Positions 31,849 to 48,022 of a stretch of 64,000 nt of DNA are shown one piece after another (within the stretch, counting starts at the first letter, position 1; every line of letters begins with the position of its first letter). The notes below the pieces were generated by a model. The model saw only the letters and a list, made by a program, of their open reading frames with translations, was not told the DNA's origin and made no database searches. A program made the position numbers and the translations under genes. The DNA comes from a virus: IMG/VR virus record IMGVR_UViG_3300012359_000028, positions 1 to 64,000 of that record; one strand, written 5' to 3'.

Positions 31849-34800
31849 ATGGCAAACGATCTAACTCCTACAACTGATCAGCAAGTCACGACACGGCCTG
31901 ATCAAACGTCTCCCGTGCCGTTACCTCCGGGCTTGCAACCTGATACTGCGCTGCAAGACTTTAGCGGATGGGATAAACTTGCAGTCAAACAAAATGAACC
32001 TACGCCCCCCGGCTGGAAAAATCTGGTATCCCCAGATGGAACATTGGCAATGCTTACGCCAAATGGCTCCCATTCCGGCGAGGTTCCGTTGCATAAAGTG
32101 CAGGCAGCCCGAGATTCCGGGTATCACATTGCAACCCCAATGAAGGCACCCGATCAACAAACTGGATGGGTTCCGTGGCATCGCGTCGGGGAGGCTCTCG
32201 ATTCTGGATTTCAACACCTAGCTGATTCTAACGCCATGCGTCGTCTTCAGGAATTGTTTGGACCGGGGCCACTTAAGCAAACTCAGATAGGTCGAGAACT
32301 CATTCAAGAAATTTCTTCTACAATCACTGATCCAACAAAGCGTAGCCAGTTTCTTGTTGGTTTGGTTCAACCTGGTGAATTGGGCGGCGGTGAGGCAATG
32401 GGCGAGGCTGCGGAGGCTCTAGGAAAAAAGCCGCAAACTCCGATATCTCCAGAAACAAAAGTTCCACGAACAATAGATGTGCAACCTGTTGCTCCGAATG
32501 TTTATGGGGCCGAGGCTTCGGCTGAAGGCAAAACATTTCTTTCGAAAGCGGCAAATGCATTTAATCAAGAGCAAGGTCGTTCACCAATCAATCCGACTCA
32601 TGTGGCGGAGGACCCGCGATCTTCTCAGATAGCTGATGCTTATAAAGCTGCAACCCATGCGCCGAATGATCCGACTGTTAAATCGTCGTATGATGCGTTG
32701 AAGTCCGATGTGGATAAGCAGTGGGATTTTGCTACGGATAAATTGGGCATCAAGGTTGATACATCCACGACAAATCCGTATGGCTTGAATGAGAAAATTC
32801 CGGCGCACGAAGAACTGCACAATGACGTTCTGAATAACAAGCACTTGACTGTGTGGACTGGCGGAGAGCCTCCGGCTGATCATCCATTATCCGAGATCGA
32901 TCCGAAGACCGGTTTGACATACAACACGAAATTCCGCGCAGTTCATGATATCTTCGGGCACTCAGCCGAAAAAACTGATTTTAGTCCGGCTGGTGAAGAG
33001 ACTGCTTGGAACTTGCATCGACAGATGTTCAGTCCCGAGGCTCGGCCAGCGTTAGCGACGGAGACCCGAGGACAGGCTGCATATACTTATAAGTATGGAG
33101 ATTTTCCTCCACAGAAAGCGGCACTTCTCCCCGAAGAATTTCATTTTCGTCCTGAAGATTTGAAAGGACCGATTATAGCTGCTACTCCTTCAGGAGAGGC
33201 TATGCATGTTCCTCCTCGAAACACTAAAGGACTCTCTGCAAATACGGTCAAAGCCATTGAGGCAGGCGGCGGTATTCCTGGTGGTCTTCAAAAGGGCGCT
33301 CCCGAGGAAGATATTCCAGACTATGCGATCTTTCATGATCCGAAGAGCGGTTCAAGTTTGATGTTACCAATGGATCAGGTTACGCCCAAAAATGTGATCG
33401 CGCATCTTGAGATAAGTCGTGCCCAGTATGCGGCAGCAGCGGCGAAGAATACTGCTCCCGCCCCTACTCCCGAACAAAACAAACCCTTACGTGGAACTGA
33501 ATCTTATCATCCTGATTTACAAGAATTCGTTCGGCAAACTAATTCTTTGGTAGACGATCCTTCGCGTATCACAAAACAGGCTGCATTCATCACGCCAGAC
33601 GGCCGCTTTAGTTATGTGCGCCCTGGAGAACAACACGCTGGCCCTATTCGTAAAGCAATGGCAAATGAATGGGACCCATCTGTTCTTGATCCTCGAATAG
33701 ATTTTATAAACCAGACGGGCGCAATTCGAACTCGATTTGGAACGGGACGGGAAGGTGAGACTCTTCATATCTCGGTGCCGAAGACTGGTGTTACTGATGA
33801 GCAAATTACGGCTATGCGGCAGTCGGTTGGACAATTGGGCCGGAACGCGAATCTTGTATTAGAGACTGCTGATAATCCGTCTCTAGTGAAAACGGCAACA
33901 AAAGAATTTGTACGTCCTTCGGATGTTGAGCCGATGCTGCGGGAAATCAGGGCACACCCAGAATCTAACGATGAAAGTAAAAATCTTTTGATGGAAGAAC
34001 GGCAGTCTCCATTGAAAGAACCTTATACGGCGCAAATTACGGATTCAACTGGAACTCATATAGAAACGATACCAGATTTTTCTTCAAAGGCAGCAATAAA
34101 TACGGCCTGGAAAAAGTTTCCTAACGCATCAACAGTATACGTTAAACCTTTTCCTGAAAATGTGGCTCCTTCCACTGAGTATTCTATTCCTACCGGCAAA
34201 CCATTGGCTATGAGTAAGTCGCTGCGTTCCGAGCAGGACACAATTCATCACGAACTTGGGCATGCGATGATTGGGGAGAAAGAAGGAATTATTCAAAACG
34301 GTATGATTCGCCATACTCACCCCAATGCAAGGTTTTCGACGCGGGCAGCAATCATTTGGGACGGACCAAGTTTAATGTACGGTGACCGAGTTAGGCCAGA
34401 TAAAGCCCCTAGTTTAGTTCGTACTTTTATGGGAGGGATTGCCCAAGATGAAATTCTGGGATATTCTCGTGAAGAAAACCATAATTTTCAACTAGGTCGC
34501 AAAGGCAGTGATGGGTACGAGGCTTTGCATATTTTGCTCGATGCAGGCGAACCTATGGATCGAGCCGTTGAGATTCTTCATCAAGCAATCGACGAAAATA
34601 AAAAATACTTGACTCAGCCAGCGGTTGCAGATATAATCAAAGAAAACGCGCCCTTCCGAGAATCAAATCTTTCGAGGCAGTATCATTTTAGTCCCAATCG
34701 GATTAGGAATATGCACGCGGAAGCGCAAAGGAGAATGAATGTTGAACCAACGGAAGCTGGAGCGGAGCCTAACAACCAAACAACTAATGGAGAAAACATC

Positions 34801-36294
34801 CCAGGACGTGCAGCAGATGTCGCCGGAGGAAAAGGCGAAGCTGCGGCAGGGTCTGGACAAGGCATTCCCGCCCAAAAAGAAATAACGACAAAAGACTTGA
34901 CTGCTCCAGGCCAATCTCATTGGGGTGATACTGCGGACCTTCTGGCCTCACGACCAGATGGCGGAGCTATTGATCCGAAAACTGGTAGTGAGGACGCAAA
35001 AGGATTCGGCGCTGAAGTGCTTCCTGAAGAGCGGCAGAGGATCGATCACCAGCCAACTGCGGTAGACCTGCAAGGTTATTATGAGCAGCATAAGGATGTT
35101 TTTGATAAGCATCCTGAATTGCGTATTGGATGGTATCAGGACCCCGAGAAGGGTTGGGAATTGAATATCGGCGCATCAACTCAGTCTCGTGAGGGCGCGG
35201 AGTGGGTTGGTCGCAAATTAGACCAGAAGGCAATTTATGACATTGAAAAAGGCCAGGTTATTGATACAGGCGGCCAAAATCAGAGGACCACATTCGGCCG
35301 TTATCCTTTGGAGCAGAGATTAGAAGATTTGTCCGGCCGGGGGTTTAAGGAAATGCAAACGGCGTATCCGACGCAGCCTGAGATGCGTTCTATGATTCGG
35401 GCTGGACAAGTTGCGAAATCATGGTGGCAAAATTCTCGTGATGCAATGAGTCTTCTCACCAATTCAGACCCTGAAGCTGCACATGATCTCGGACAATTTC
35501 TAACAGCAGTTAGTTCAAATAAGGGGAATGATTTGGCGCTGCGCTTGGGCTTGAAAATTTATACCGATTGGATTGAGGCCGGAAAGCCTAATGCGCCGGG
35601 CGCGATTTCAGATATTGCGGAAAAGGCTCAGCAGGCTTTGAGAGAATCAGATGAAGGAATGTCTTTATTTGGTTCTTTGCTCTCGCCAGAGAAAGCACAA
35701 TCAATGATGCCGGTTGACAAAATGATGCTTGAGCGCTATGTCGGCGGTCAATCATTTTATCATCCTGAAGATTTACGCGCCGCAAAGATTGCTAACATGG
35801 GTTTGACTATGGGCGGTGATCCGTGGGCCGGAGTTTTGGATCGTCATACCGGCCGAACCATGGCCTATGGCGAGGAATTGCAGCCGACGGCTAAGTCATA
35901 CTTCGCCATGAAAGAATGGCTACGTAAAGCATCCCAAGCTGAGGATATGACTCTGGAAGAGGGACAAGCCGCGAATTGGGTTGTAGGACGATTACTGAGC
36001 CCCGATCTGTCCTTGACAGATAAGCAGATTCTTGCTAAGATCAAATCAGGGAATACGCTGAAAGAAGGAGAAACTTATGCCAATATCATCCTCAATGACC
36101 CCAAAGTCAATCGCCTCGCCCGAGAAGTCATTGCCAAGTTTGGAGGCACTCCAGACGAAGTTTTTGCAGACCTCCGCAAAATCACCGAGCAAGGAAAGTC
36201 CAGACTCCTCGAAGGATCGAAAAAAGAAGCATCTAACCCAACTCTTAAATCTTATCTTGGGCGAGCCGTCAAAGGCCGAGACGCCGGAAAGTAA
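31849..36294 (+). CDS. large multi-domain (polyvalent-type) internal virion protein
   Basis: 1481 aa, last late gene; FRAVHDIFGH...GEE domain, FITPDG...H domain, HHELGH zincin/M41-like peptidase motif, C-terminal glycosylase-like helical region (VLDRH...QAANW). Confidence 0.7.
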   Translation: MANDLTPTTDQQVTTRPDQTSPVPLPPGLQPDTALQDFSGWDKLAVKQNEPTPPGWKNLVSPDGTLAMLTPNGSHSGEVPLHKVQAARDSGYHIATPMKAPDQQTGWVPWHRVGEALDSGFQHLADSNAMRRLQELFGPGPLKQTQIGRELIQEISSTITDPTKRSQFLVGLVQPGELGGGEAMGEAAEALGKKPQTPISPETKVPRTIDVQPVAPNVYGAEASAEGKTFLSKAANAFNQEQGRSPINPTHVAEDPRSSQIADAYKAATHAPNDPTVKSSYDALKSDVDKQWDFATDKLGIKVDTSTTNPYGLNEKIPAHEELHNDVLNNKHLTVWTGGEPPADHPLSEIDPKTGLTYNTKFRAVHDIFGHSAEKTDFSPAGEETAWNLHRQMFSPEARPALATETRGQAAYTYKYGDFPPQKAALLPEEFHFRPEDLKGPIIAATPSGEAMHVPPRNTKGLSANTVKAIEAGGGIPGGLQKGAPEEDIPDYAIFHDPKSGSSLMLPMDQVTPKNVIAHLEISRAQYAAAAAKNTAPAPTPEQNKPLRGTESYHPDLQEFVRQTNSLVDDPSRITKQAAFITPDGRFSYVRPGEQHAGPIRKAMANEWDPSVLDPRIDFINQTGAIRTRFGTGREGETLHISVPKTGVTDEQITAMRQSVGQLGRNANLVLETADNPSLVKTATKEFVRPSDVEPMLREIRAHPESNDESKNLLMEERQSPLKEPYTAQITDSTGTHIETIPDFSSKAAINTAWKKFPNASTVYVKPFPENVAPSTEYSIPTGKPLAMSKSLRSEQDTIHHELGHAMIGEKEGIIQNGMIRHTHPNARFSTRAAIIWDGPSLMYGDRVRPDKAPSLVRTFMGGIAQDEILGYSREENHNFQLGRKGSDGYEALHILLDAGEPMDRAVEILHQAIDENKKYLTQPAVADIIKENAPFRESNLSRQYHFSPNRIRNMHAEAQRRMNVEPTEAGAEPNNQTTNGENIPGRAADVAGGKGEAAAGSGQGIPAQKEITTKDLTAPGQSHWGDTADLLASRPDGGAIDPKTGSEDAKGFGAEVLPEERQRIDHQPTAVDLQGYYEQHKDVFDKHPELRIGWYQDPEKGWELNIGASTQSREGAEWVGRKLDQKAIYDIEKGQVIDTGGQNQRTTFGRYPLEQRLEDLSGRGFKEMQTAYPTQPEMRSMIRAGQVAKSWWQNSRDAMSLLTNSDPEAAHDLGQFLTAVSSNKGNDLALRLGLKIYTDWIEAGKPNAPGAISDIAEKAQQALRESDEGMSLFGSLLSPEKAQSMMPVDKMMLERYVGGQSFYHPEDLRAAKIANMGLTMGGDPWAGVLDRHTGRTMAYGEELQPTAKSYFAMKEWLRKASQAEDMTLEEGQAANWVVGRLLSPDLSLTDKQILAKIKSGNTLKEGETYANIILNDPKVNRLAREVIAKFGGTPDEVFADLRKITEQGKSRLLEGSKKEASNPTLKSYLGRAVKGRDAGK

Positions 36295-39937: not shown

Positions 39938-40834
39938 TCATTGTGGCAATTCGAACCCGAGTCCGACGCGCTCAGACCATTCACGTCGCTCGTCGGTTCT
40001 TGAAATCCATTTCACATAGCGCTGATGCACGTCTTTTGCCGCATGGCCTGCCCAAAAGTAATCCAGTTCAGTCGGAGTGCTCTTCACCGCAACCTGAGTC
40101 AGTCTAAAACGCCGGAAAGCATGGAAGCCGGTGCTCGGGATGAGCCTGTCGAGACGTTTACGCGCCGCCCCCTCCCGACTGGTAATCAGAAAACCGTTTG
40201 CTGGAATCACTTTGAGCAGAAATTCATTCAATGACGGGCACAAATCGACGATCCTGCGCCCGGCTGCCGTCTTTACAGGCCCCAGGTCGCCCGCTTCATG
40301 CCGTTGAACATCAACCGTGATCGTCCGATTGGACGGGTTCCAGTAGTTACCGGGGCCGTTTGGAAGAGTATGTACCGCTAAAGCCTCACCGATGCGGAGC
40401 CCGGAGCCCGCTAGCAAGCCCCAGAGTAGCCTATCATCGGGAGACCCCTCTAGAAACGCCTCCTGTAGCGTTTTATCGGCTATCACAGGGGTGTTTTGAT
40501 CGGCCGGAGACAGTTTGGGAAGGTCCAGGAACGACTTATTCCAGGTCCGAGGGTAGATTTGATTGCCATTTTGGTCTACGGCGGAGGCTATAACCCCCTT
40601 AAAAACGTTGAAGATACCCTTGACCGTGCTGGCGGCCAGTTTGTCGCTGATCGGACTAAAAAACACTTTGGCAGCGGCATTATCAAGGTCTAACAACGCC
40701 CTGGAGCCCATTTGGGGTAGCAAATGAGCGTCCAGATAGGACTGATAGGCGTCCAGGGTGCCGGAACGCCGAGGTTTGCGGTTCATTCTGAGCCCGCGCA
40801 TGTACTCTATCGATTGATCAGCGAATGTTGTCAT
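39938..40834 (-). CDS. int: tyrosine recombinase / integrase
   Basis: GLRIGEALA (R), VKT (K), HAFRR (HxxR), AGH, HQRY (Y); N-terminal SAM-like core-binding region. Confidence 0.85.
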   Translation of the reverse strand: MTTFADQSIEYMRGLRMNRKPRRSGTLDAYQSYLDAHLLPQMGSRALLDLDNAAAKVFFSPISDKLAASTVKGIFNVFKGVIASAVDQNGNQIYPRTWNKSFLDLPKLSPADQNTPVIADKTLQEAFLEGSPDDRLLWGLLAGSGLRIGEALAVHTLPNGPGNYWNPSNRTITVDVQRHEAGDLGPVKTAAGRRIVDLCPSLNEFLLKVIPANGFLITSREGAARKRLDRLIPSTGFHAFRRFRLTQVAVKSTPTELDYFWAGHAAKDVHQRYVKWISRTDERREWSERVGLGFELPQ

Positions 40835-40840
40835 GCCCCA

Positions 40841-40869
40841 ATCCTACCGAAAATGAAATGTCCTGTCAA
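40841..40869 (-). promoter_or_regulatory. sigma70-type promoter giving a leaderless integrase mRNA
   Basis: TTGACA-N17-TAGGAT-N6-ATG, no SD. Confidence 0.7.
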
Positions 40870-40958
40870 GTCCTATTTTCGGGAATTATCCACTTGAGTC
40901 CCTCGATTTCGGCCCTTTCAACCTCAATGCCTATCATATACCGTTGAATTGAATAACT

Positions 40959-41393
40959 TTATTCTTCAAATTCCGAAAGATATTCTCCGACTTCTTTGAT
41001 AGTTTCTCTCAAAACTTTCATTTCTTTAGGACACATCTTAACCCAACCGGACCAATCTTCTTCTACCCTCTCGATAGCAGTTCTTATGCTTTCTAGACGA
41101 GTGGTAAGGGCACCAATTATATCGGCGTTAGTTTTTGCCCGGACCGGGCGGGCAGGCTTTAGCCCCTCCGCTTCAAGATGAGCCTGAATCCAGCGATAGG
41201 CATTCTGCCTCGGGATATTCAGGTCGCCCCAAATTTTAGTTATCGGAACGTGAACTTCTCGAAGTTTTTCTTGCCAGTCGTAGCATTTTCGACCGAAGTC
41301 TAGACACCGTTTTTCAGACTTCTGACAATCATCCCATGCTACTTGCAAATCCTTTTTTGCCGCCGCTACAACTTGTTCCGCATCCTTACTCAT
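40959..41393 (-). CDS. passenger gene, HTH-like protein
   Basis: GGAGG RBS and ATGA coupling at 41393; ITKIWGDLNIPRQNAYRWI resembles an HTH. Confidence 0.6.
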   Translation of the reverse strand: MSKDAEQVVAAAKKDLQVAWDDCQKSEKRCLDFGRKCYDWQEKLREVHVPITKIWGDLNIPRQNAYRWIQAHLEAEGLKPARPVRAKTNADIIGALTTRLESIRTAIERVEEDWSGWVKMCPKEMKVLRETIKEVGEYLSEFEE

Positions 41394-42610
41394 GCGGCCT
41401 CCTTGCCCACAAATTCGTGACTGTAACAAATTCTTTTACTATCCCCATGATAATCACTAAAGAGTGCTTTATGACCCTCTTCTTTAGCGGCTTTGTCTCT
41501 CTTTGTCTTATCACTTATATCCAGTCGCTCTTTACGATATTTGCAGGTGGGTATCCACCCCGAGTTTTTCTTGTCTCTGTAACCCCCGAAGCGAACATGT
41601 GCTGTTTTTGAAAAATATCTTTTTCCCTGGTCAAGATAGAATTGGGCGATAGTGTCCGAAATTCTTGGTCCGATTCCTAACCCCTGAAAGTCAGGTAATA
41701 CTACAGTGCGGTGTTCTCGATATGCCTTGCGTTCGTCCGACCCCCTTTGGAATTTGAAGTTCTTACATTTACACCCTTTACTGACCGGCGTTTTCCCACA
41801 GTCCTTATCTACATGCCCGTGTCCGCAATCCGCACAATTCCGTCCACCTATCGGTTGTGCTATACTAGAAACGAAACCGACTATTGTTTCCGCCTGTTCC
41901 CCAAACTGAGCAGTTGCCAAATAGGAATGGCACGACTGATTCAGATCGGGAGTCAAATAGTGATGACTCGCAAACATGGGCCAGATACTACGTTGGCACG
42001 GATAGAGTCGGAGTTTGATTTTTGGCCGCCGAAGTGACCTCCCATCGTGCAAAATTCCTGTCACCGTATCAAAATACCAGTCGGGACGCAACCATTCTAA
42101 AATATCATAGTGGCAGGAAGCGAAAACCAACCCATGAAAATTCTGATTATCGACATAACGACGTACGGCAACCGACGCAGCCTTTGCTACGTTCCTATCA
42201 ATCACCGATGTATATTCGTCTATGACCGCTCCATTCTCCAGTTTACGAGCAAGGTTTGCCCGAAACTGCTCGCCGTTAGATAAAACATGAAACGGTTTGC
42301 ACCATGAGGGGACGGAGTTAAGCCCCACCGCCATTAAGCGATCTATGGCTTCAGCCGGAGTCGAAAAATGGGAGACAATCGCTTTTGTGTCGCTCCATTC
42401 TGGTTGGGCTTCCGTTCCGAATTGTCTCAGAAGCAAAGTTTTTCCGCTTCCGCTCGGGCCTAGAATCAAGCCTATTTTGAAGTCCGACGGCACTTCTGGC
42501 TTTTCCCAACCTTCAAAGACGGACTCTCCTATGAAAGCATAATCTAATGCTTTGGCAACTTCATCGGTAAACGTATCAGTCTTTACCTTAATTTTGTAGA
42601 GTGGTCTCAT
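41390..42610 (-). CDS. ABC-type ATPase fused to a GNAT acetyltransferase, with a Zn-finger insert
   Basis: Walker A GPSGSGKT, signature LSNGEQFR, Walker B VIDEY, H-loop SCHYD; GNAT motif A RTVVLPDFQGLGIG; insert CADCGH.H...C...C.C. Confidence 0.85.
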   Translation of the reverse strand: MRPLYKIKVKTDTFTDEVAKALDYAFIGESVFEGWEKPEVPSDFKIGLILGPSGSGKTLLLRQFGTEAQPEWSDTKAIVSHFSTPAEAIDRLMAVGLNSVPSWCKPFHVLSNGEQFRANLARKLENGAVIDEYTSVIDRNVAKAASVAVRRYVDNQNFHGLVFASCHYDILEWLRPDWYFDTVTGILHDGRSLRRPKIKLRLYPCQRSIWPMFASHHYLTPDLNQSCHSYLATAQFGEQAETIVGFVSSIAQPIGGRNCADCGHGHVDKDCGKTPVSKGCKCKNFKFQRGSDERKAYREHRTVVLPDFQGLGIGPRISDTIAQFYLDQGKRYFSKTAHVRFGGYRDKKNSGWIPTCKYRKERLDISDKTKRDKAAKEEGHKALFSDYHGDSKRICYSHEFVGKEAA

Positions 42611-43157
42611 ATGCTACCTCTTTTGAAAATATCCGATGAGCAAGAGCCTCTAATTCTTCTGCGGCACGAATCATACCTTCCGCCTGAGCACGATAAGCAT
42701 CTGCATCCCCGAACAAGTCACTGGCGTCGGTTGCTAGGAAGTACCCTCCGTCTAGTGATCGGACGGAACAAATTGGAATGTCTTTTTCGGCAACCAAATA
42801 TGCCTTGGCAAAGCGAAGTTGCCGACGATTCGCTTCGCTATCCTTAAACCCCATCGCTAGTAAGACATCCTTAACTAGCATTACGGACGCTTTCCCTTGT
42901 CGAAGAACAGTTGGTAATTTTTCAATATAATCTTGACGGGCAATAAATTCTTCGCCTGTTCGCTTATCTCTCCAAACAATTTGCAATGGCTTCTGCTGAG
43001 GAGCGGCTCTTTCGACGGTTTGAATTTGCTCTGTACGTATGCCTGGCCATGCGGCGAGGAATTTGATTTGAGCATCTTTTTCATCGGCACCTTCAAAGGG
43101 CCGAGTTATCGACTTTCCAAGTGTAGTGGAGTGATAGGTGATATTGAATGACCCCAT
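42588..43157 (-). CDS. passenger gene with C-terminal winged-helix-like domain
   Basis: RRQLR...L.....PICS....GGYFLA pattern. Confidence 0.6.
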   Translation of the reverse strand: MGSFNITYHSTTLGKSITRPFEGADEKDAQIKFLAAWPGIRTEQIQTVERAAPQQKPLQIVWRDKRTGEEFIARQDYIEKLPTVLRQGKASVMLVKDVLLAMGFKDSEANRRQLRFAKAYLVAEKDIPICSVRSLDGGYFLATDASDLFGDADAYRAQAEGMIRAAEELEALAHRIFSKEVAYETTLQN

Positions 43158-43687
43158 TTTCCAATAGTCTCCTTTGTAAGTTGCTCATATGTAATTCTCT
43201 TTCCTACAACAACATCCACGAAACTATCCAATCTCTCGAAAGTATGCCGCTGCACTCGGCCCGCATTGAGCCGAAATGTAAATTCATTCACATAGCGTCC
43301 GAGATGCTTCTTGCTGGCATGATGATAGACCCCATGCAATCCCCTCTTCATCACTGCCCAAACACTCTCAATTGAATTTGTGTGGACATCGCCACGAACA
43401 TATTCTCCAGTGATGTGCTTCACGGATTCGTGCTCAAACCCCTCTCGTTTCAAAGCAACGTAACTTCCAAAATCGTCGGTCATGATTCGAGAACCTGCCG
43501 CCACGTTCTTGTGAATCGCTGCTCGCAACTCCCGACCGCCCGTGCTTTGGATCACTTGAGCCACGACATTCCCGCCACGTTCCCGCAACCCGATGACGGC
43601 TGCTTTCTCTGACCGTTCTCTCGGCTTATGGATTCGGTCCCACATATGCCGACTATCCTCTCTTCCGCTCAAATAAGTCTCATCCAC
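43106..43687 (-). pseudogene. IS1595-family (ISXO2-like) DDE transposase, N-terminally truncated
   Basis: VDETY, IMTD, V.H...EYVRGDVHTNSIE..W...KR...G.YH..S.KHL.RY..EF.FR.N; begins directly after the TIR and lacks the Zn-ribbon and HTH. Confidence 0.85.
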
Positions 43688-43707
43688 GAGTCAAGTGGAT
43701 AGTTCCC

Positions 43708-44292
43708 CTATTTTCCACCCGTCGTGCCTTCCTCGATTTCTTTCGCAACAGCATCGAGATTACGGAATTGATCATCCTTATGCGCCGCTTCGGTAAAATT
43801 AATTTTTCCGTCAACATAGCCAACAAAAATCTGAATACGCGCCGCACGGATTGCAGCACGGTCAACGAAAGTAGGTGTGACTGTTTGCTTTGTACCGACG
43901 CGAATGTGCTTCGTATATTTTCTCTTCGGTGTTACAGTAATTGTAGCTCCCTTCTGTGCTTGTTCGGCAACATAGGAGCCGACTTTTTGAGATGCAAGGG
44001 ATACTGCATGCTGGCCGGGTCGAAGCACGACAGTTTCGCCGACATGATTCTCAACGTGATATTCAGTTTTTCCCGTTACTACGCCGCCGTTCCCGCTGGC
44101 GGCTCCTGCACCGGCTCCATGAACGTGCGGAAATTGTCCCGTTGTAGGGTCCAGGTCGATCACGCCGTCAGATACCGGGGTAAAGGTTACCGTTGCTGTC
44201 GGAGTTGGGGTCTCTTCTGTCTTCCCACCGTGCTTTTCAGGAAGTTCTACTCCTTGTGATGCTACTGCTGTTTCAACTTTCTTTTTACGCAT
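43708..44292 (-). CDS. hypothetical protein
   Basis: AGGAG RBS; its stop codon lies in the target-site duplication. Confidence 0.65.
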   Translation of the reverse strand: MRKKKVETAVASQGVELPEKHGGKTEETPTPTATVTFTPVSDGVIDLDPTTGQFPHVHGAGAGAASGNGGVVTGKTEYHVENHVGETVVLRPGQHAVSLASQKVGSYVAEQAQKGATITVTPKRKYTKHIRVGTKQTVTPTFVDRAAIRAARIQIFVGYVDGKINFTEAAHKDDQFRNLDAVAKEIEEGTTGGK

Positions 44293-44300
44293 GATTTCTC

Positions 44301-44531
44301 CTATTCGGATTGAGATGATTTCTTCGTTCGGGGCCGATATCCGCCGCGTTTTGATTTCGATTTGACGACGGTGACGTGCTCGACCTGCTCGATTTTCACT
44401 TCGACACCTGCTGCTTTCAACGCATCAAATTCCTTGCGGGCATTGGGATAGACAGTTCGAATACGATGGAATGTATCGGAATTATCTTGAAGCTGACTCA
44501 CTAGATTTAACAACTGTTCGAGATTCTCCAT
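44301..44531 (-). CDS. hypothetical protein
   Basis: AGGAG RBS; basic C-terminus KRGGYRP. Confidence 0.6.
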   Translation of the reverse strand: MENLEQLLNLVSQLQDNSDTFHRIRTVYPNARKEFDALKAAGVEVKIEQVEHVTVVKSKSKRGGYRPRTKKSSQSE

Positions 44532-45950: not shown

Positions 45951-46339
45951 GTGGGGCCATCTTTTGGACAGCCCCACCCGGCGACTAGGCTGCCAAAGCC
46001 GCAGGCGCGAACGTATCGAAGGACTCGAACGTCGGCACCAGGGACTTTAGAAACCCAATCACCTTAGCCAACATGGTGTTGACTTTTATGATTTGGTACA
46101 CTTTTATACGAGGTGTCCATTCTCGGCACGAGCCTCCCACCACTAATCTCATCTGTCGAAGCCGGGTCAGGCCCGCAGAAAAACTTCTCAGCGAGAAGGT
46201 ATTGGTGGACCTGGGGAGAGTCGAACTCCCGTCCAGTTGAGTAGCCATGGGATATTGACATGCGTAATCTGGAGAAGCCAGAAACTCCGGTAACACGGTT
46301 TGATACGCCTCCACCACTGGACTTTTTGAAATCATTGTA
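45951..46339 (-). ncRNA. ssrA: circularly permuted (two-piece) tmRNA
   Basis: Acceptor piece ends GAC-GGGAG-TTCGACT-CTCCC-CAGGTCC-ACCA (CCA end 46203); 28-nt intervening segment; coding piece starts GGGCCTG-ACCCGGCTTCGAC (46174); acceptor stem has G3.U; pk1 CGAG/CTCG; tag 46083-45985 ends ALAA*; 3' hairpin 45951-45977. Confidence 0.92.
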
Positions 46340-47596: not shown

Positions 47597-48022
47597 TCAT
47601 GATCGAAACTCCTCTCTGACCTTCATCAAGAGTTCTCCGAGCCGATTTTTTCCATATCCGTTGTAAACGCCCCAGTATGTATCACCCCACCAGTTTTTCT
47701 CAATCAATCGTTCATTATCGGTTTTAAGTAGTAGAGTTTTCAACTCGGGATCAGAAAATTTCGCTCGTAAAACTTCAAGCATGACTGTTTCTTTGATGGT
47801 GCTCCAATCAGGTTTAAGATGTTTCAGTTTTTTGGGACTCCCGAAATGCTTTGCTTTAGCCGGAGTAATCGAACAATAAATAGCTTCTCGTTCTGAATCA
47901 TCCGTTGTCTTTTCCGACTGGTAGACATGCTCAGCCGAAGGAAGCACCATTCCTTTCCACACAATCGGCCAGCAATAGAAGTTTGATAAAAATTCGTATT
48001 GCCCGTAAAATCCATTTATCAT
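47597..48022 (-). CDS. NADAR (YbiA-like) domain protein
   Basis: FLSNFY...SAEH.YQ..K...AK..G...W...K...M...LRAKF...L...LL.T....L.E....D.YWG...G.N.LG..LM.VR. Confidence 0.9.
   Translation of the reverse strand: MINGFYGQYEFLSNFYCWPIVWKGMVLPSAEHVYQSEKTTDDSEREAIYCSITPAKAKHFGSPKKLKHLKPDWSTIKETVMLEVLRAKFSDPELKTLLLKTDNERLIEKNWWGDTYWGVYNGYGKNRLGELLMKVREEFRS

What the first reader, a model, noticed from the sequence alone, without database searches (positions are those of the whole stretch)
41390..42610. ABC-ATPase/GNAT fusion with Zn-finger insert: candidate mobile nucleic-acid modification system
Seen: a complete soluble ABC motif set (GPSGSGKT, LSNGEQFR, VIDEY, SCHYD) with no membrane partner, fused to a GNAT domain (F..HHYL...RTVVLPDFQGLGIG) interrupted by a Cys/His-rich insert, and flanked by two putative DNA-binding genes. 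Established: GNAT-fold enzymes can modify nucleic acids (phage Mu Mom on DNA adenine; TmcA, an ATPase-GNAT fusion, on tRNA cytidine). Inference: the cassette could be an ATP-coupled DNA or RNA acylation system for anti-restriction or anti-defence, spread by a transposon. The substrate cannot be read from sequence.
Basis: partly seen in the sequence, partly recalled or inferred. Interest (0 to 1): 0.72.

Follow-up and report, generated by a model that had tools for sequence, protein, structure and literature searches.

The report
Transposon-borne phage ABC-ATPase–acetyltransferase fusion gene
A soil phage carries, on a small hitch-hiking transposon, a gene that fuses an ATP-driven clamp-type motor to an acyl-transferase; it belongs to a widespread, never-tested phage family that most likely marks DNA chemically to evade bacterial defences.

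Summary
Window 41390-42610 (-) encodes an intact 406-aa soluble protein with a full ABC-ATPase motif set and a C-terminal GNAT domain.

It is not an orphan. It belongs to phrog_11143 (E 8e-97), with 5216 homologues and matches in 76 phage records. Iyer et al. 2021 (PMC7824862, passages read) already predict that this ABC-GNAT family acylates a DNA base. This scan also flagged the family earlier on other DNA.

New here:
- The gene is cargo of a 2,827-bp IS1595-family element. It has 20-nt terminal inverted repeats, a perfect 8-bp target duplication and an N-terminally truncated transposase.
- Sister elements with the same ends carry a Mom-family GNAT, a DruA/Mom-like GNAT plus ParB, or C5 DNA methylases.
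- More distant homologues sit beside ParB_N proteins, formyltransferases, or aspartate decarboxylase plus a CoA-transferase.

These contexts favour DNA base acylation, but nothing was tested experimentally. The GNAT domain is a generic acetyltransferase type, not Mom or TmcA. The Cys/His insert is present in only 4 of 21 aligned homologues.

The parts
40873..40880 (.). 8-bp target-site duplication, left copy (CTATTTTC)
   Evidence: Read directly. It is identical to 43708-43715.
40881..40900 (.). Terminal inverted repeat, cargo-side end of the IS1595-family element
   Evidence: the repeat finder pair I1: 20 nt, 90% complementary to 43688-43707. The same repeat bounds a complete IS in L092.
40959..41393 (-). 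144-aa HTH-like protein (listed as a 156-aa ORF from an upstream TTG), translationally coupled to the fusion gene
   Evidence: ATGA start/stop overlap and an AAGGAGG Shine-Dalgarno sequence. One search lists 6 proteins: the window's own protein and a 98%-identical one, plus four relatives at 52-84% identity. Three of those relatives lie on contigs of the same lengths (3982, 2778, 45650) as the closest ABC-GNAT homologues. One carries Pfam HTH_23 (PF13384). The alignment conserves IPRQxAxRWI. No significant PDB match.
41390..42610 (-). ABC-ATPase/GNAT fusion protein, 406 aa (phrog_11143)
42104..42460 (-). ABC-ATPase catalytic core: Walker A (42437-42460), signature (42260-42283), Walker B + D-loop (42197-42226), H-loop (42104-42118)
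   Evidence: Motif positions and invariance. The family profile matches solved ABC domains, with E-values from 2e-18 to 1e-13 among the top hits.
41393..42025 (-). GNAT domain (about residues 196-406), including HHYL (41954-41965), motif A (41669-41710) and the conserved C-terminal SHE[FY][IV]G
   Evidence: 46 of 46 aligned domains hit Acetyltransf_1, best E 2.9e-11; the window's own copy scores E 0.006. PDB profile hits are all weak, but most of them are GNATs.
41735..41839 (-). Clade-specific Cys/His insert (5 Cys + 2 His), a putative zinc knuckle in the loop before motif A
   Evidence: Present in 4 of 21 aligned homologues, with all Cys and His conserved among those 4. Positions. Zinc binding is inferred, not shown.
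42588..43157 (-). 189-aa protein of unknown function; overlaps the transposase remnant by 52 nt and the fusion gene by 23 nt
   Evidence: No Pfam hit. Weak phrog_2113 hit, E 1.8e-5. Only one homologue (48% identity), on the 45,650-bp contig that also holds the 81%-identical fusion protein. Atlas leads are below threshold.
43106..43687 (-). N-terminally truncated IS1595-family DDE transposase (193 aa)
   Evidence: DDE_Tnp_IS1595 E 1.7e-38. NCBIfam IS1595 model positions 66-214 of 215 are matched. In 67 of 69 IMG/VR loci whose match starts at residue 1-2, the homologue has at least 120 more N-terminal residues (median 133).
43688..43707 (.). Terminal inverted repeat, transposase-side end
   Evidence: It abuts the GTG that opens the truncated transposase frame.
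43708..43715 (.). 8-bp target-site duplication, right copy (CTATTTTC); contains the stop codon of the upstream phage ORF 43708-44292

Best explanation
The gene encodes a member of the widespread phage ABC-ATPase/GNAT family. It is a passenger on a now non-autonomous 2.8-kb IS1595-family element that inserted into the 38-bp gap between two early-region genes of a soil phage.

Proposed mechanism, all inferred. ATP binding closes two ABC domains into the usual head-to-tail sandwich dimer around nucleic acid, as in UvrA, Rad50 or ABC-F proteins. This positions the two GNAT domains. They transfer an acyl group from an acyl-CoA (acetyl-CoA, or in some relatives an aminoacyl-type CoA such as beta-alanyl-CoA) onto an exocyclic amine of a DNA base. 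ATP hydrolysis then resets the clamp.

The modified phage DNA would resist restriction or other DNA-sensing defences. On this view the cassette is an exchangeable anti-restriction cargo, functionally equivalent to the Mom and C5-methylase cargos of its sister elements. The coupled 144-aa HTH protein and the 189-aa protein are lineage-specific accessories that may target or regulate the enzyme.

Shown: family membership, intact catalytic motifs, the transposon structure and the contexts. Inferred: DNA as substrate, the chemistry and the anti-restriction role.
For: Family and motifs
- phrog_11143 E 8e-97. 5216 homologues. 2337 cluster representatives at 50% identity.
- All ABC catalytic motifs are invariant or nearly so in 76 sequences.
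- The family profile hits solved ABC domains. The top rows include the soluble nucleic-acid-binding ExpZ (ABC-F), UvrA and ABCE1.
- GNAT: 46 of 46 domains hit Acetyltransf_1.

Transposon
- Terminal repeats match at 18 of 20 positions, with a perfect 8-bp duplication.
- The same repeat bounds a complete 1,883-bp IS with its own perfect duplication in L092.
- Contigs from soil metagenome runs of other studies bridge both junctions with no differences.

Cargo class in sister elements
- L092: Mom family, PF25680, E 5e-11.
- L093: DruA/Mom-like GNAT (E 1.5e-11) plus a ParB_N protein.
- L122 and L143: C5 DNA methylases.

Context of homologues
- A ParB_N gene lies immediately upstream in 5 of 5 tested phages: EastWest, Oenococcus unk162, P335, LE4 and Jace.
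- A Formyl_trans_N gene lies immediately downstream in phiE255, Komp_PAO1_1, a Porphyromonas phage and AnClar.
- Jace has Asp_decarbox (E 2e-33) plus CoA-transferase III downstream.
- In IMG/VR loci the neighbours are primase, helicase and DNA polymerase (13 of 81) or primase-helicase (8 of 81).
- Distant long forms are fused to SBNO helicase, Tudor and (below cut-off) SAP domains.

Print
- Iyer et al. 2021 predict DNA base acylation for this family and name phage pT24. pT24 is hit H9.
Against:
- The GNAT resembles generic protein and small-molecule acetyltransferases. 0 of 46 domains hit the Mom, DruA or TmcA-type models, and hhalign against the Mom-family cargo gives 0.14% probability.
- The informative partners are missing from this phage record, which is about 65% complete: no ParB_N and no Formyl_trans_N.
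- Among the 79 IMG/VR loci nearest to this protein the partners are almost absent: ParB 2, formyltransferase 0, PanD 0, CoA-transferase 0. The strongest context therefore comes from homologues only 29-35% identical.
- The ABC profile matches transporter domains about as well as DNA-binding ones.
- Placement in replication or early modules may be simple hitch-hiking.
- The cargo of the other transposase loci is very diverse and includes a SocA/Panacea antitoxin domain.
Confidence: 0.5

Rival explanations
1. It acylates RNA rather than DNA. The target could be a tRNA base (working like TmcA/NAT10) or the amino group of aminoacyl-tRNA (like the GNAT toxins TacT/AtaT). The ABC domain would dock on tRNA or the ribosome as ABC-F proteins do. 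The purpose would be to protect tRNAs from anticodon nucleases or to retune translation.
For: - ABC-F (ExpZ) and ABCE1 are among the best solved matches of the ATPase profile.
- A 23-residue motif-A match to NAT10 appears at E 0.59.
- Formyl_trans_N neighbours belong to a family that also includes Met-tRNA formyltransferase. This is stated in PMC2920897 (passage read).
- The downstream HTH protein is coupled like an antitoxin.
- Recalled, not from any call: PrrC and RloC join ABC-type ATPases to tRNA-targeting effectors.
Against: - No tRNA-binding, RecD-helicase or GNAT_acetyltr_2 domain was found.
- The formyltransferase neighbours are short (157-216 aa), and Pfam detected only the Formyl_trans_N domain in them.
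- Recurrent ParB_N partners, Mom and methylase sister cargos, and replication-gene neighbours all point to DNA.
- Most family members stand alone, with no antitoxin-like partner.
Confidence: 0.15
2. It is a protein acetyltransferase for host takeover or anti-defence, like phage Rac acting on RNA polymerase or an acetylating anti-CRISPR. The ABC domain would act as an ATP-gated recognition or oligomerisation module.
For: - The GNAT domain is of the generic Acetyltransf_1/7/10 type (46, 46 and 35 of 46).
- Iyer et al. 2021 interpret many phage GNATs as Rac-like modifiers of host proteins.
- The gene lies in the early, leftward region. A YbiA/NADAR-like gene sits 5 kb away (E 2.6e-24 to 2b3w), which suits an anti-defence neighbourhood.
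Against: - There is no precedent in the searched literature for an ABC-ATPase-coupled protein acetyltransferase.
- This reading does not explain the recurrent ParB_N, formyltransferase, or PanD + CoA-transferase partners.
- It also does not explain why sister transposons carry DNA-modifying enzymes in the same slot.
Confidence: 0.2
3. It acylates a small molecule such as an antibiotic, a polyamine, or a nucleotide second messenger of a defence system. On this view the ATPase is a degenerate relic or a regulatory switch.
For: - The nearest solved GNAT matches include diamine acetyltransferase (E 0.031) and tabtoxin resistance protein (E 1.1).
- PanD and CoA-transferase neighbours are small-molecule enzymes.
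Against: - Every ABC catalytic motif, including the D-loop that serves dimerisation, is conserved across 76 sequences. Tandem ABC-ABC-GNAT forms also exist. The ATPase is therefore not a relic.
- The PDB matches are at chance level.
- ParB and replication contexts are left unexplained.
Confidence: 0.08

Closest known systems
Phage ABC-ATPase + GNAT 'DNA modification system' of Iyer, Zhang, Burroughs & Aravind (2013; restated in Iyer et al. 2021, Viruses 13:63, example Tenacibaculum phage pT24); phrog_11143
   Same: Same two-domain architecture and the same family. phrog_11143 scores E 8e-97. pT24 is a direct hit, 35.7% identity at E 4e-58. The predicted role, an uncharacterised acyl modification of a DNA base, is the one favoured here.
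   Different: This copy has a roughly 35-aa Cys/His insert (4 of 21 homologues). It rides on an IS1595-family element, lacks ParB and formyltransferase partners, and is coupled to two lineage-specific small proteins. The 2013 paper was not held, so I saw only the 2021 passage.
Mom of phage Mu (Pfam PF25680), a GNAT-fold adenine-N6 acyl-type DNA modification enzyme
   Same: It works like this only by inference: a GNAT-fold, accessory, anti-restriction enzyme. A Mom-family protein occupies the equivalent cargo slot in the sister IS of L092. Earlier scan notes report Mom-like GNATs next to ABC-GNAT genes in T4-like phages (not tested here).
   Different: Not a family member. 0 of 46 domains hit PF25680 and hhalign probability is 0.14%. 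Mom has no ATPase.
TmcA / NAT10 (tRNA/rRNA cytidine N4-acetyltransferase: RecD-type helicase ATPase + GNAT)
   Same: Shares the concept of an NTPase coupled to a GNAT acting on a nucleic-acid base.
   Different: The ATPase class differs (ABC versus RecD-like helicase). There are no DUF1726, GNAT_acetyltr_2 or tRNA_bind_2 hits. The only match is a 23-residue motif-A stretch at E 0.59. This is an analogue, not a homologue beyond the GNAT fold.
IS1595-family 'transporter' insertion sequences with passenger genes (Siguier, Gagnevin & Chandler 2009; title seen only in a reference list; family properties recalled)
   Same: DDE_Tnp_IS1595 transposase. Short terminal repeats starting GGG and an 8-bp duplication. 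Passenger genes lie between the transposase and the far end, as in L092 and L093.
   Different: The transposase lacks about 133 N-terminal residues, so the element cannot move by itself. It resides in a phage genome and carries a DNA-modification-type cargo. My three-term search for IS1595, 'passenger genes' and 'phage' listed 7 papers; none of the listed titles or abstract openings describes this.
Soluble nucleic-acid-binding ABC ATPases (UvrA, ABC-F/ExpZ, ABCE1)
   Same: No membrane domain. Walker A, signature, Walker B, D-loop and H-loop are all kept. These proteins are among the best solved matches. Tandem-ABC forms of the family mimic their two-domain layout.
   Different: The ABC domain is minimal, with only 52 residues between Walker A and the signature and no conserved Q-loop glutamine. 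The profile matches transporter domains about as well.

Membership tests
ABC-type ATPase superfamily | Walker A GxxGxGK[ST] | tested here: met
   GPSGSGKT at 51-58. G51, G54, G56 and K57 are invariant in 76 sequences.
ABC-type ATPase superfamily | ABC signature (LSGGQ-like) motif | tested here: met
   LSNGEQ at 110-115. S111 and G113 are invariant and E114 is at least 90% conserved.
ABC-type ATPase superfamily | Walker B with catalytic Glu, D-loop and H-loop His | tested here: met
   D131 and E132 are invariant. In the D-loop TSVID, S135 is invariant and D138 is at least 90% conserved. H167 is at least 90% conserved.
ABC-type ATPase superfamily | Q-loop glutamine between Walker A and the signature | tested here: inconclusive
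   No conserved Gln lies in the 52-residue spacer. A conserved A77/S80 strand may replace it.
ABC-type ATPase superfamily | Profile similarity to solved ABC domains | tested here: met
   The A2 profile against PDB gives E-values from 2.3e-18 to 1e-13 among the top hits, which include ExpZ, UvrA, ABCE1 and P-glycoprotein.
ABC transporter (importer or exporter) | Membrane permease domain or partner gene | tested here: not met
   Maximum 19-residue hydropathy is 1.35 or less in all six ORFs in or beside the element. No permease was seen in the 12 annotated phage contexts viewed.
GNAT superfamily (Acetyltransf_1) | Motif A (Q/R-x-x-G-x-G/A) on beta4-alpha3, and a profile match | tested here: met
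   Motif QGLGIG at 309-314. The window's own domain scores E 0.0062, 17.2 bits, which is below the 20.7-bit cut-off. However, 46 of 46 aligned domains match, best E 2.9e-11.
GNAT superfamily (Acetyltransf_1) | GNAT fold in three dimensions | not testable with these tools
The ESM Atlas model of this protein aligns (TM 0.63-0.83 by query) with clusters whose members carry GNAT Pfam families. That comparison is between predicted models only.
Mom family (PF25680) | Match to the family profile | tested here: not met
   0 of 46 domains at E <= 1. hhalign of A3 against the Mom-family protein of L092 gives probability 0.14%.
TmcA / NAT10 | RecD-like helicase ATPase + GNAT_acetyltr_2 + tRNA-binding domain | tested here: not met
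   None of these appears among the Pfam hits. Only a 23-residue motif-A match to NAT10, E 0.59.
Phage ABC-GNAT family (phrog_11143; Iyer et al.) | Full-length homology, with ABC N-terminal and GNAT C-terminal in one chain | tested here: met
   phrog_11143 E 8.3e-97 in two stretches. Homologues align over 97-100% of the length. The published example, pT24, is hit H9.
Phage ABC-GNAT family (phrog_11143; Iyer et al.) | Acyl modification of a DNA base | not testable with these tools
   This is a prediction in print only. I found no experimental paper.
IS1595-family insertion sequence with passenger genes | DDE_Tnp_IS1595 transposase | tested here: met
   E 1.7e-38. NCBIfam IS1595 E 1.1e-32.
IS1595-family insertion sequence with passenger genes | Terminal inverted repeats and an 8-bp target duplication | tested here: met
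   Repeat arms match at 18 of 20 positions. CTATTTTC is present at both flanks. The same ends and an 8-bp duplication occur in L092 and in five more loci (6 of 67 loci pass the strict test).
IS1595-family insertion sequence with passenger genes | Complete transposase (autonomy) | tested here: not met
   The frame opens at the first catalytic-Asp motif, directly against the terminal repeat. 67 of 69 homologous loci have at least 120 more N-terminal residues.

The most novel reading that the evidence does not exclude
Two linked claims.

1. IS1595-family transporter elements act as a dedicated shuttle. They swap interchangeable DNA-modification (anti-restriction) cargos between phage genomes in soil: Mom, DruA-like GNAT + ParB, C5 methylases, and the ABC-GNAT cassette.

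2. The ABC-GNAT enzyme itself installs a so far undescribed ATP-dependent aminoacyl-type hypermodification on DNA bases. In relatives this could be beta-alanyl (Jace: PanD + CoA-transferase) or N-formyl-aminoacyl (phiE255, AnClar, Komp_PAO1_1 and a Porphyromonas phage: formyltransferase).

In this clade a zinc-knuckle insert and an HTH partner would replace ParB as the DNA-targeting part.
Probability: 0.3. Interest if true: 0.8.

Novelty: new member of a known kind. Interest (0 to 1): 0.55.

Why it matters
The family is large: 5216 homologues, present in T4-like, Mu-like, lactococcal, actinobacterial and jumbo phages. A DNA-modifying role was predicted in print in 2013 according to the 2021 review, and I found no test of it in the literature I could search.

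Two results make the question directly testable.
- Cultured phages carry operons that suggest a specific chemistry: Rhodococcus phage Jace with aspartate decarboxylase plus CoA-transferase, and four phages with a formyltransferase. These suggest particular adducts to look for by nucleoside mass spectrometry.
- The window shows the gene moving as transposon cargo, in the same slot that sister elements use for Mom and DNA methylases. This is independent support for an anti-restriction role, and it shows a route by which phages exchange such genes.

If confirmed, this would add a new ATP-dependent class of DNA base acylation and a new enzyme for DNA labelling.

Tried and rejected
I replaced it with profile searches against PDB, Pfam on the aligned GNAT domains, hhalign and the ESM Atlas.
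The metagenome scan found only a 58% and a 34% relative. Adjacency of the 189-aa and 144-aa genes in those relatives therefore rests on equal contig lengths only.
- Three-gene unit. tblastn of the two small proteins against 82 loci gave 0 hits and 1 weak hit. Against isolated phages there was no match. It is not a conserved unit beyond the closest clade.
- The 189-aa protein versus the first cargo ORF of L093: no similarity.
- Empty-site search. The upstream phage ORF has no relative in IMG/VR. Laying contigs of four soil runs showed no joint that skips the element. No empty site was found, and this does not show the element is immobile.
- No RNA holder was listed among the sequencing runs.
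- Promoter and terminator scan of 40400-44400: counts were at or below the shuffled expectation.
- Relaxed search for terminal repeats around the other transposase loci. Only 11 elements were delimited, some with unequal flanks. Only the 6 of 67 with perfect duplications are used in this report.
- ABC transporter reading (as in GenBank annotations and PMC2920897): rejected, because there is no membrane part.
- Papers. Iyer et al. 2013 is not held. 'ABC-GNAT' returns 0 papers. PMC7641849, PMC10853773 and PMC12839542 mention GNATs in other systems only. Supplementary files were not consulted and may list this family's members.
Full report
**Setting.** The window is part of an 82,432-base IMG/VR virus record, estimated 65% complete. 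Near-identical contigs occur in soil metagenome runs from several studies. A large terminase and other structural-module genes lie on the + strand, where ORFs run up to 36294. Early and replication genes, including a DNA polymerase, a helicase and a DHH phosphoesterase, lie on the - strand from 36.6 kb onward. The finding sits in this leftward block.

**Observation.** The ORF at 41390-42610 (-) encodes 406 aa.
- In a 76-sequence alignment the Walker A Gly and Lys, signature Ser and Gly, Walker B Asp-Glu, D-loop Ser, the His-Tyr of HHYL, and the Arg, Pro and Gly of motif A are invariant.
- The ABC domain is minimal. Only 52 residues separate Walker A from the signature, and there is no conserved Q-loop glutamine.
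- None of the six ORFs in or beside the element has a membrane-like segment.
- The Cys/His insert (about residues 258-292) occurs in 4 of 21 aligned homologues. Within those four, all five Cys and both His are conserved. A 73%-identical homologue lacks the insert. It is therefore a recent clade-specific addition in the loop before motif A. Zinc binding is plausible but inferred.

**What it belongs to.**
- Pfam hits for the window protein itself are weak: ABC_tran E 0.0018 and Acetyltransf_1 E 0.027. PHROGs gives phrog_11143, 'unknown function', at E 8.3e-97.
- The 5.8-billion-protein search returned 5216 homologues among 8000 scored candidates. The exhaustive search of 50%-identity representatives returned 2337 at E <= 0.001 and 491 at E <= 1e-30.
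- 76 isolated-phage records carry a homologue, all below 60% identity. They include Aeromonas PX29, Vibrio vB_VmeM-32, Tenacibaculum pT24, Burkholderia phiE255, Gordonia, Streptococcus, Lactococcus P335 and Leptospira LE4.
- The family profile matches solved ABC domains, with E-values from 2e-18 to 1e-13 among the top hits. Soluble nucleic-acid-binding proteins (ExpZ/ABC-F, UvrA, ABCE1) are among the top hits, alongside P-glycoprotein.
- For the C-terminal domain, 46 of 46 aligned sequences hit Acetyltransf_1 (best E 2.9e-11) and Acetyltransf_7. None hit Mom, DruA or the TmcA-type GNAT model.
- Many relatives are long proteins with two or more ABC modules before the GNAT. This fits the rule that ABC domains act as dimers.

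**Prior art.** Iyer et al. [quoted passage not shown] They cite their 2013 NAR paper and name phage pT24, which is hit H9 here.
- The 2013 paper is not held.
- Searches for 'ABC ATPase' + GNAT + phage, for acetyltransferase + 'ABC ATPase' + 'DNA modification' + bacteriophage, and for 'ABC-GNAT' found no experimental study.
- An older genome paper read phiE255 gp29 as an ABC transporter and noted that gp28-gp30 are absent from BcepMu (PMC2920897, passage read).
- This scan had already flagged the family on other DNA.

**The transposon.**
- The repeat finder gives a 20-nt inverted repeat at 40881-40900 / 43688-43707, matching at 18 of 20 positions.
- The eight bases outside each arm are identical, CTATTTTC.
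- The 2,827-bp unit holds exactly four co-oriented, overlapping genes: a 193-aa DDE_Tnp_IS1595 protein (E 1.7e-38), the 189-aa ORF, the fusion gene, and the downstream gene.
- The right-hand copy of the duplication contains the stop codon of the phage ORF 43708-44292. The left-hand copy lies 38 bp upstream of the start of an integrase-like gene (phrog_1). The insertion therefore hit an intergenic gap.
- The transposase is truncated. Its frame opens at the first catalytic-Asp motif, directly against the repeat. In 67 of 69 IMG/VR loci whose match begins at residue 1-2, the homologue has at least 120 more N-terminal residues (median 133), giving about 305 aa in total.
- The element is single-copy in the record.
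- Contigs from soil runs of other studies bridge both junctions with no differences. No contig skips the element. The junctions are therefore real, but no empty site was seen.

**Sister elements.** The same terminal repeat occurs twice, in inverted orientation and 1,883 bp apart, in IMG/VR contig L092.
- In L092 it is flanked by a perfect 8-bp duplication, TAAAATAG. It encloses a full 310-aa transposase, 73% identical over the shared part, plus a 180-aa Mom-family protein (PF25680, E 5.4e-11, above the cut-off).
- L093 holds a 3,278-bp element with a perfect duplication. Its cargo is a 185-aa ORF, a DruA/Mom-like GNAT (PF14236, E 1.5e-11) and a ParB_N protein.
- L122 carries a C5 DNA methylase as its cargo. 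L143 carries a C5 methylase plus a 288-aa ORF, although its flanks are unequal.
- In all, 6 of 67 loci passed the strict test of a repeat with at most 2 mismatches and a duplication with at most 1 mismatch. The genes downstream of the other transposases are very diverse, with no cluster spanning more than 2 loci. One delimited but imperfect element carries a SocA/Panacea domain.
- The slot occupied here by the ABC-GNAT cassette is thus used by close sister elements for known or suspected DNA-modifying enzymes.

**Context of homologues.**
- In the 81 loci analysed (79 of the nearest IMG/VR loci plus L001 and L002; L043 was dropped because no target ORF was called), no neighbour family is universal. 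The largest groups reflect phage lineages:
  - primase upstream, with helicase and DNA polymerase downstream (13 loci);
  - primase-helicase (8 loci);
  - small-terminase-like (8 loci);
  - ParB-methylase fusion (6 loci);
  - primosomal or initiator protein (5 loci).
- In 12 annotated phage records viewed, the picture is sharper for the more distant homologues (29-35% identity).
  - The gene immediately upstream is a roughly 180-aa ParB_N protein in 5 of 5 tested: EastWest, Oenococcus unk162, P335, LE4 and Jace. Three are above and two below the Pfam cut-off. AnClar also has a ParB-like gene, two genes away.
  - The gene immediately downstream is a Formyl_trans_N protein in phiE255, Komp_PAO1_1, Porphyromonas phage011a and AnClar. 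In AnClar it is annotated as a tRNA methyltransferase.
  - In Jace the downstream genes are aspartate decarboxylase (E 2e-33) and a CoA-transferase family III protein (E 2e-8).
  - Inference: aspartate decarboxylase makes beta-alanine and a CoA-transferase could load it onto CoA. That would supply an aminoacyl-type donor for the GNAT. A formyltransferase could cap the free amine of such an adduct.
- These partners are absent from this phage record. Among the 79 nearest IMG/VR loci they are almost absent: ParB 2, and formyltransferase, PanD and CoA-transferase 0 each.
- Distant long forms are fused to an SBNO-type helicase (P0201), a Tudor domain (P0148, above cut-off) and a SAP motif (P0153, below cut-off). 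All three are DNA- or chromatin-associated modules.

**The two small genes.**
- The downstream gene starts at 41393. Its ATG overlaps the TGA of the fusion gene, and AAGGAGG lies 5 nt upstream. This suggests translational coupling.
- Three of its relatives lie on contigs of the same lengths as the closest fusion-protein homologues. One relative carries HTH_23.
- The 189-aa gene has one homologue (48% identity), on the 45,650-bp contig that also holds the 81%-identical fusion protein. No family could be assigned.
- Neither gene is found next to more distant family members.

**Reading.** The family assignment and the transposon structure are secure. The function is inferred. The balance of context evidence favours an ATP-gated, DNA-directed acyl transfer that protects phage DNA: ParB partners, donor-synthesis and tailoring enzymes, replication and packaging neighbourhoods, DNA-module fusions, and Mom or methylase cargo in sister elements. 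I put this at about 0.5. RNA, protein and small-molecule targets remain open, because the GNAT itself is of the generic type and the nearest relatives lack the telling partners.

**Novelty.** The enzyme is a new member of a family already described and functionally predicted in print. What I did not find in print:
- carriage by an IS1595-family transporter element inside a phage;
- the cargo parallel with Mom, DruA-like and methylase genes;
- the Jace-type and formyltransferase-type operons as chemical clues.

The 2013 paper and its supplements could not be seen and may already cover some partners.

Noticed in passing
window 45985-46263 (-): The phage encodes a permuted (two-piece) tmRNA. Rfam RF04321 scores 77.7 bits (gathering score 47), E 3.5e-13, over the full model. 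ARAGORN also calls a permuted tmRNA whose tag ends in ...AALAA.
   Followed up: partly
window 47597-48022 (-): A 141-aa YbiA/NADAR-like protein, E 2.6e-24 to PDB 2b3w and E 5.9e-7 to the NADAR protein 8bau. From memory, NADAR domains can reverse ADP-ribosylation of DNA bases, so this may be another anti-defence gene in the same early region.
   Followed up: partly
L092 10275-12157 and L093 4519-7796: These are complete IS1595-family elements in related phage contigs with perfect 8-bp duplications. One carries a Mom-family GNAT. The other carries a DruA/Mom-like GNAT plus a ParB_N protein.
   Followed up: yes
L170 (Rhodococcus phage Jace) 2318-5083: An operon of ParB_N, ABC-GNAT, aspartate decarboxylase and CoA-transferase III. 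It suggests a beta-alanyl-CoA donor pathway.
   Followed up: partly
L002 (Gordonia phage AnClar) 2312-2962: The gene annotated 'tRNA-methyltransferase' matches Formyl_trans_N (E 5e-10, above the cut-off), not a methyltransferase.
   Followed up: yes
P0201, P0148, P0153 (distant long homologues): Tandem ABC modules of this family are fused to an SBNO-type helicase, a PTM/DIR17 Tudor domain, or a SAP motif (below cut-off). Atlas neighbours include clusters from Chlorophyta and Planctomycetota.
   Followed up: partly
window 31849-36294 (+): A 1481-aa protein ends the + strand gene block that holds the structural genes. It contains an HExxH-like stretch (HELGH) in its translation. It may be an injected polyvalent protein. 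This was not tested.
   Followed up: no
window 39938-40834 (-) and 40841-40869 (-): An integrase-like gene (phrog_1, E 7e-15) lies immediately downstream of the element. A promoter-like site (10 of 12 matches) sits between the element's end and its start. Homologues of this integrase also lie downstream of IS1595 transposases in L095 and L105.
   Followed up: no
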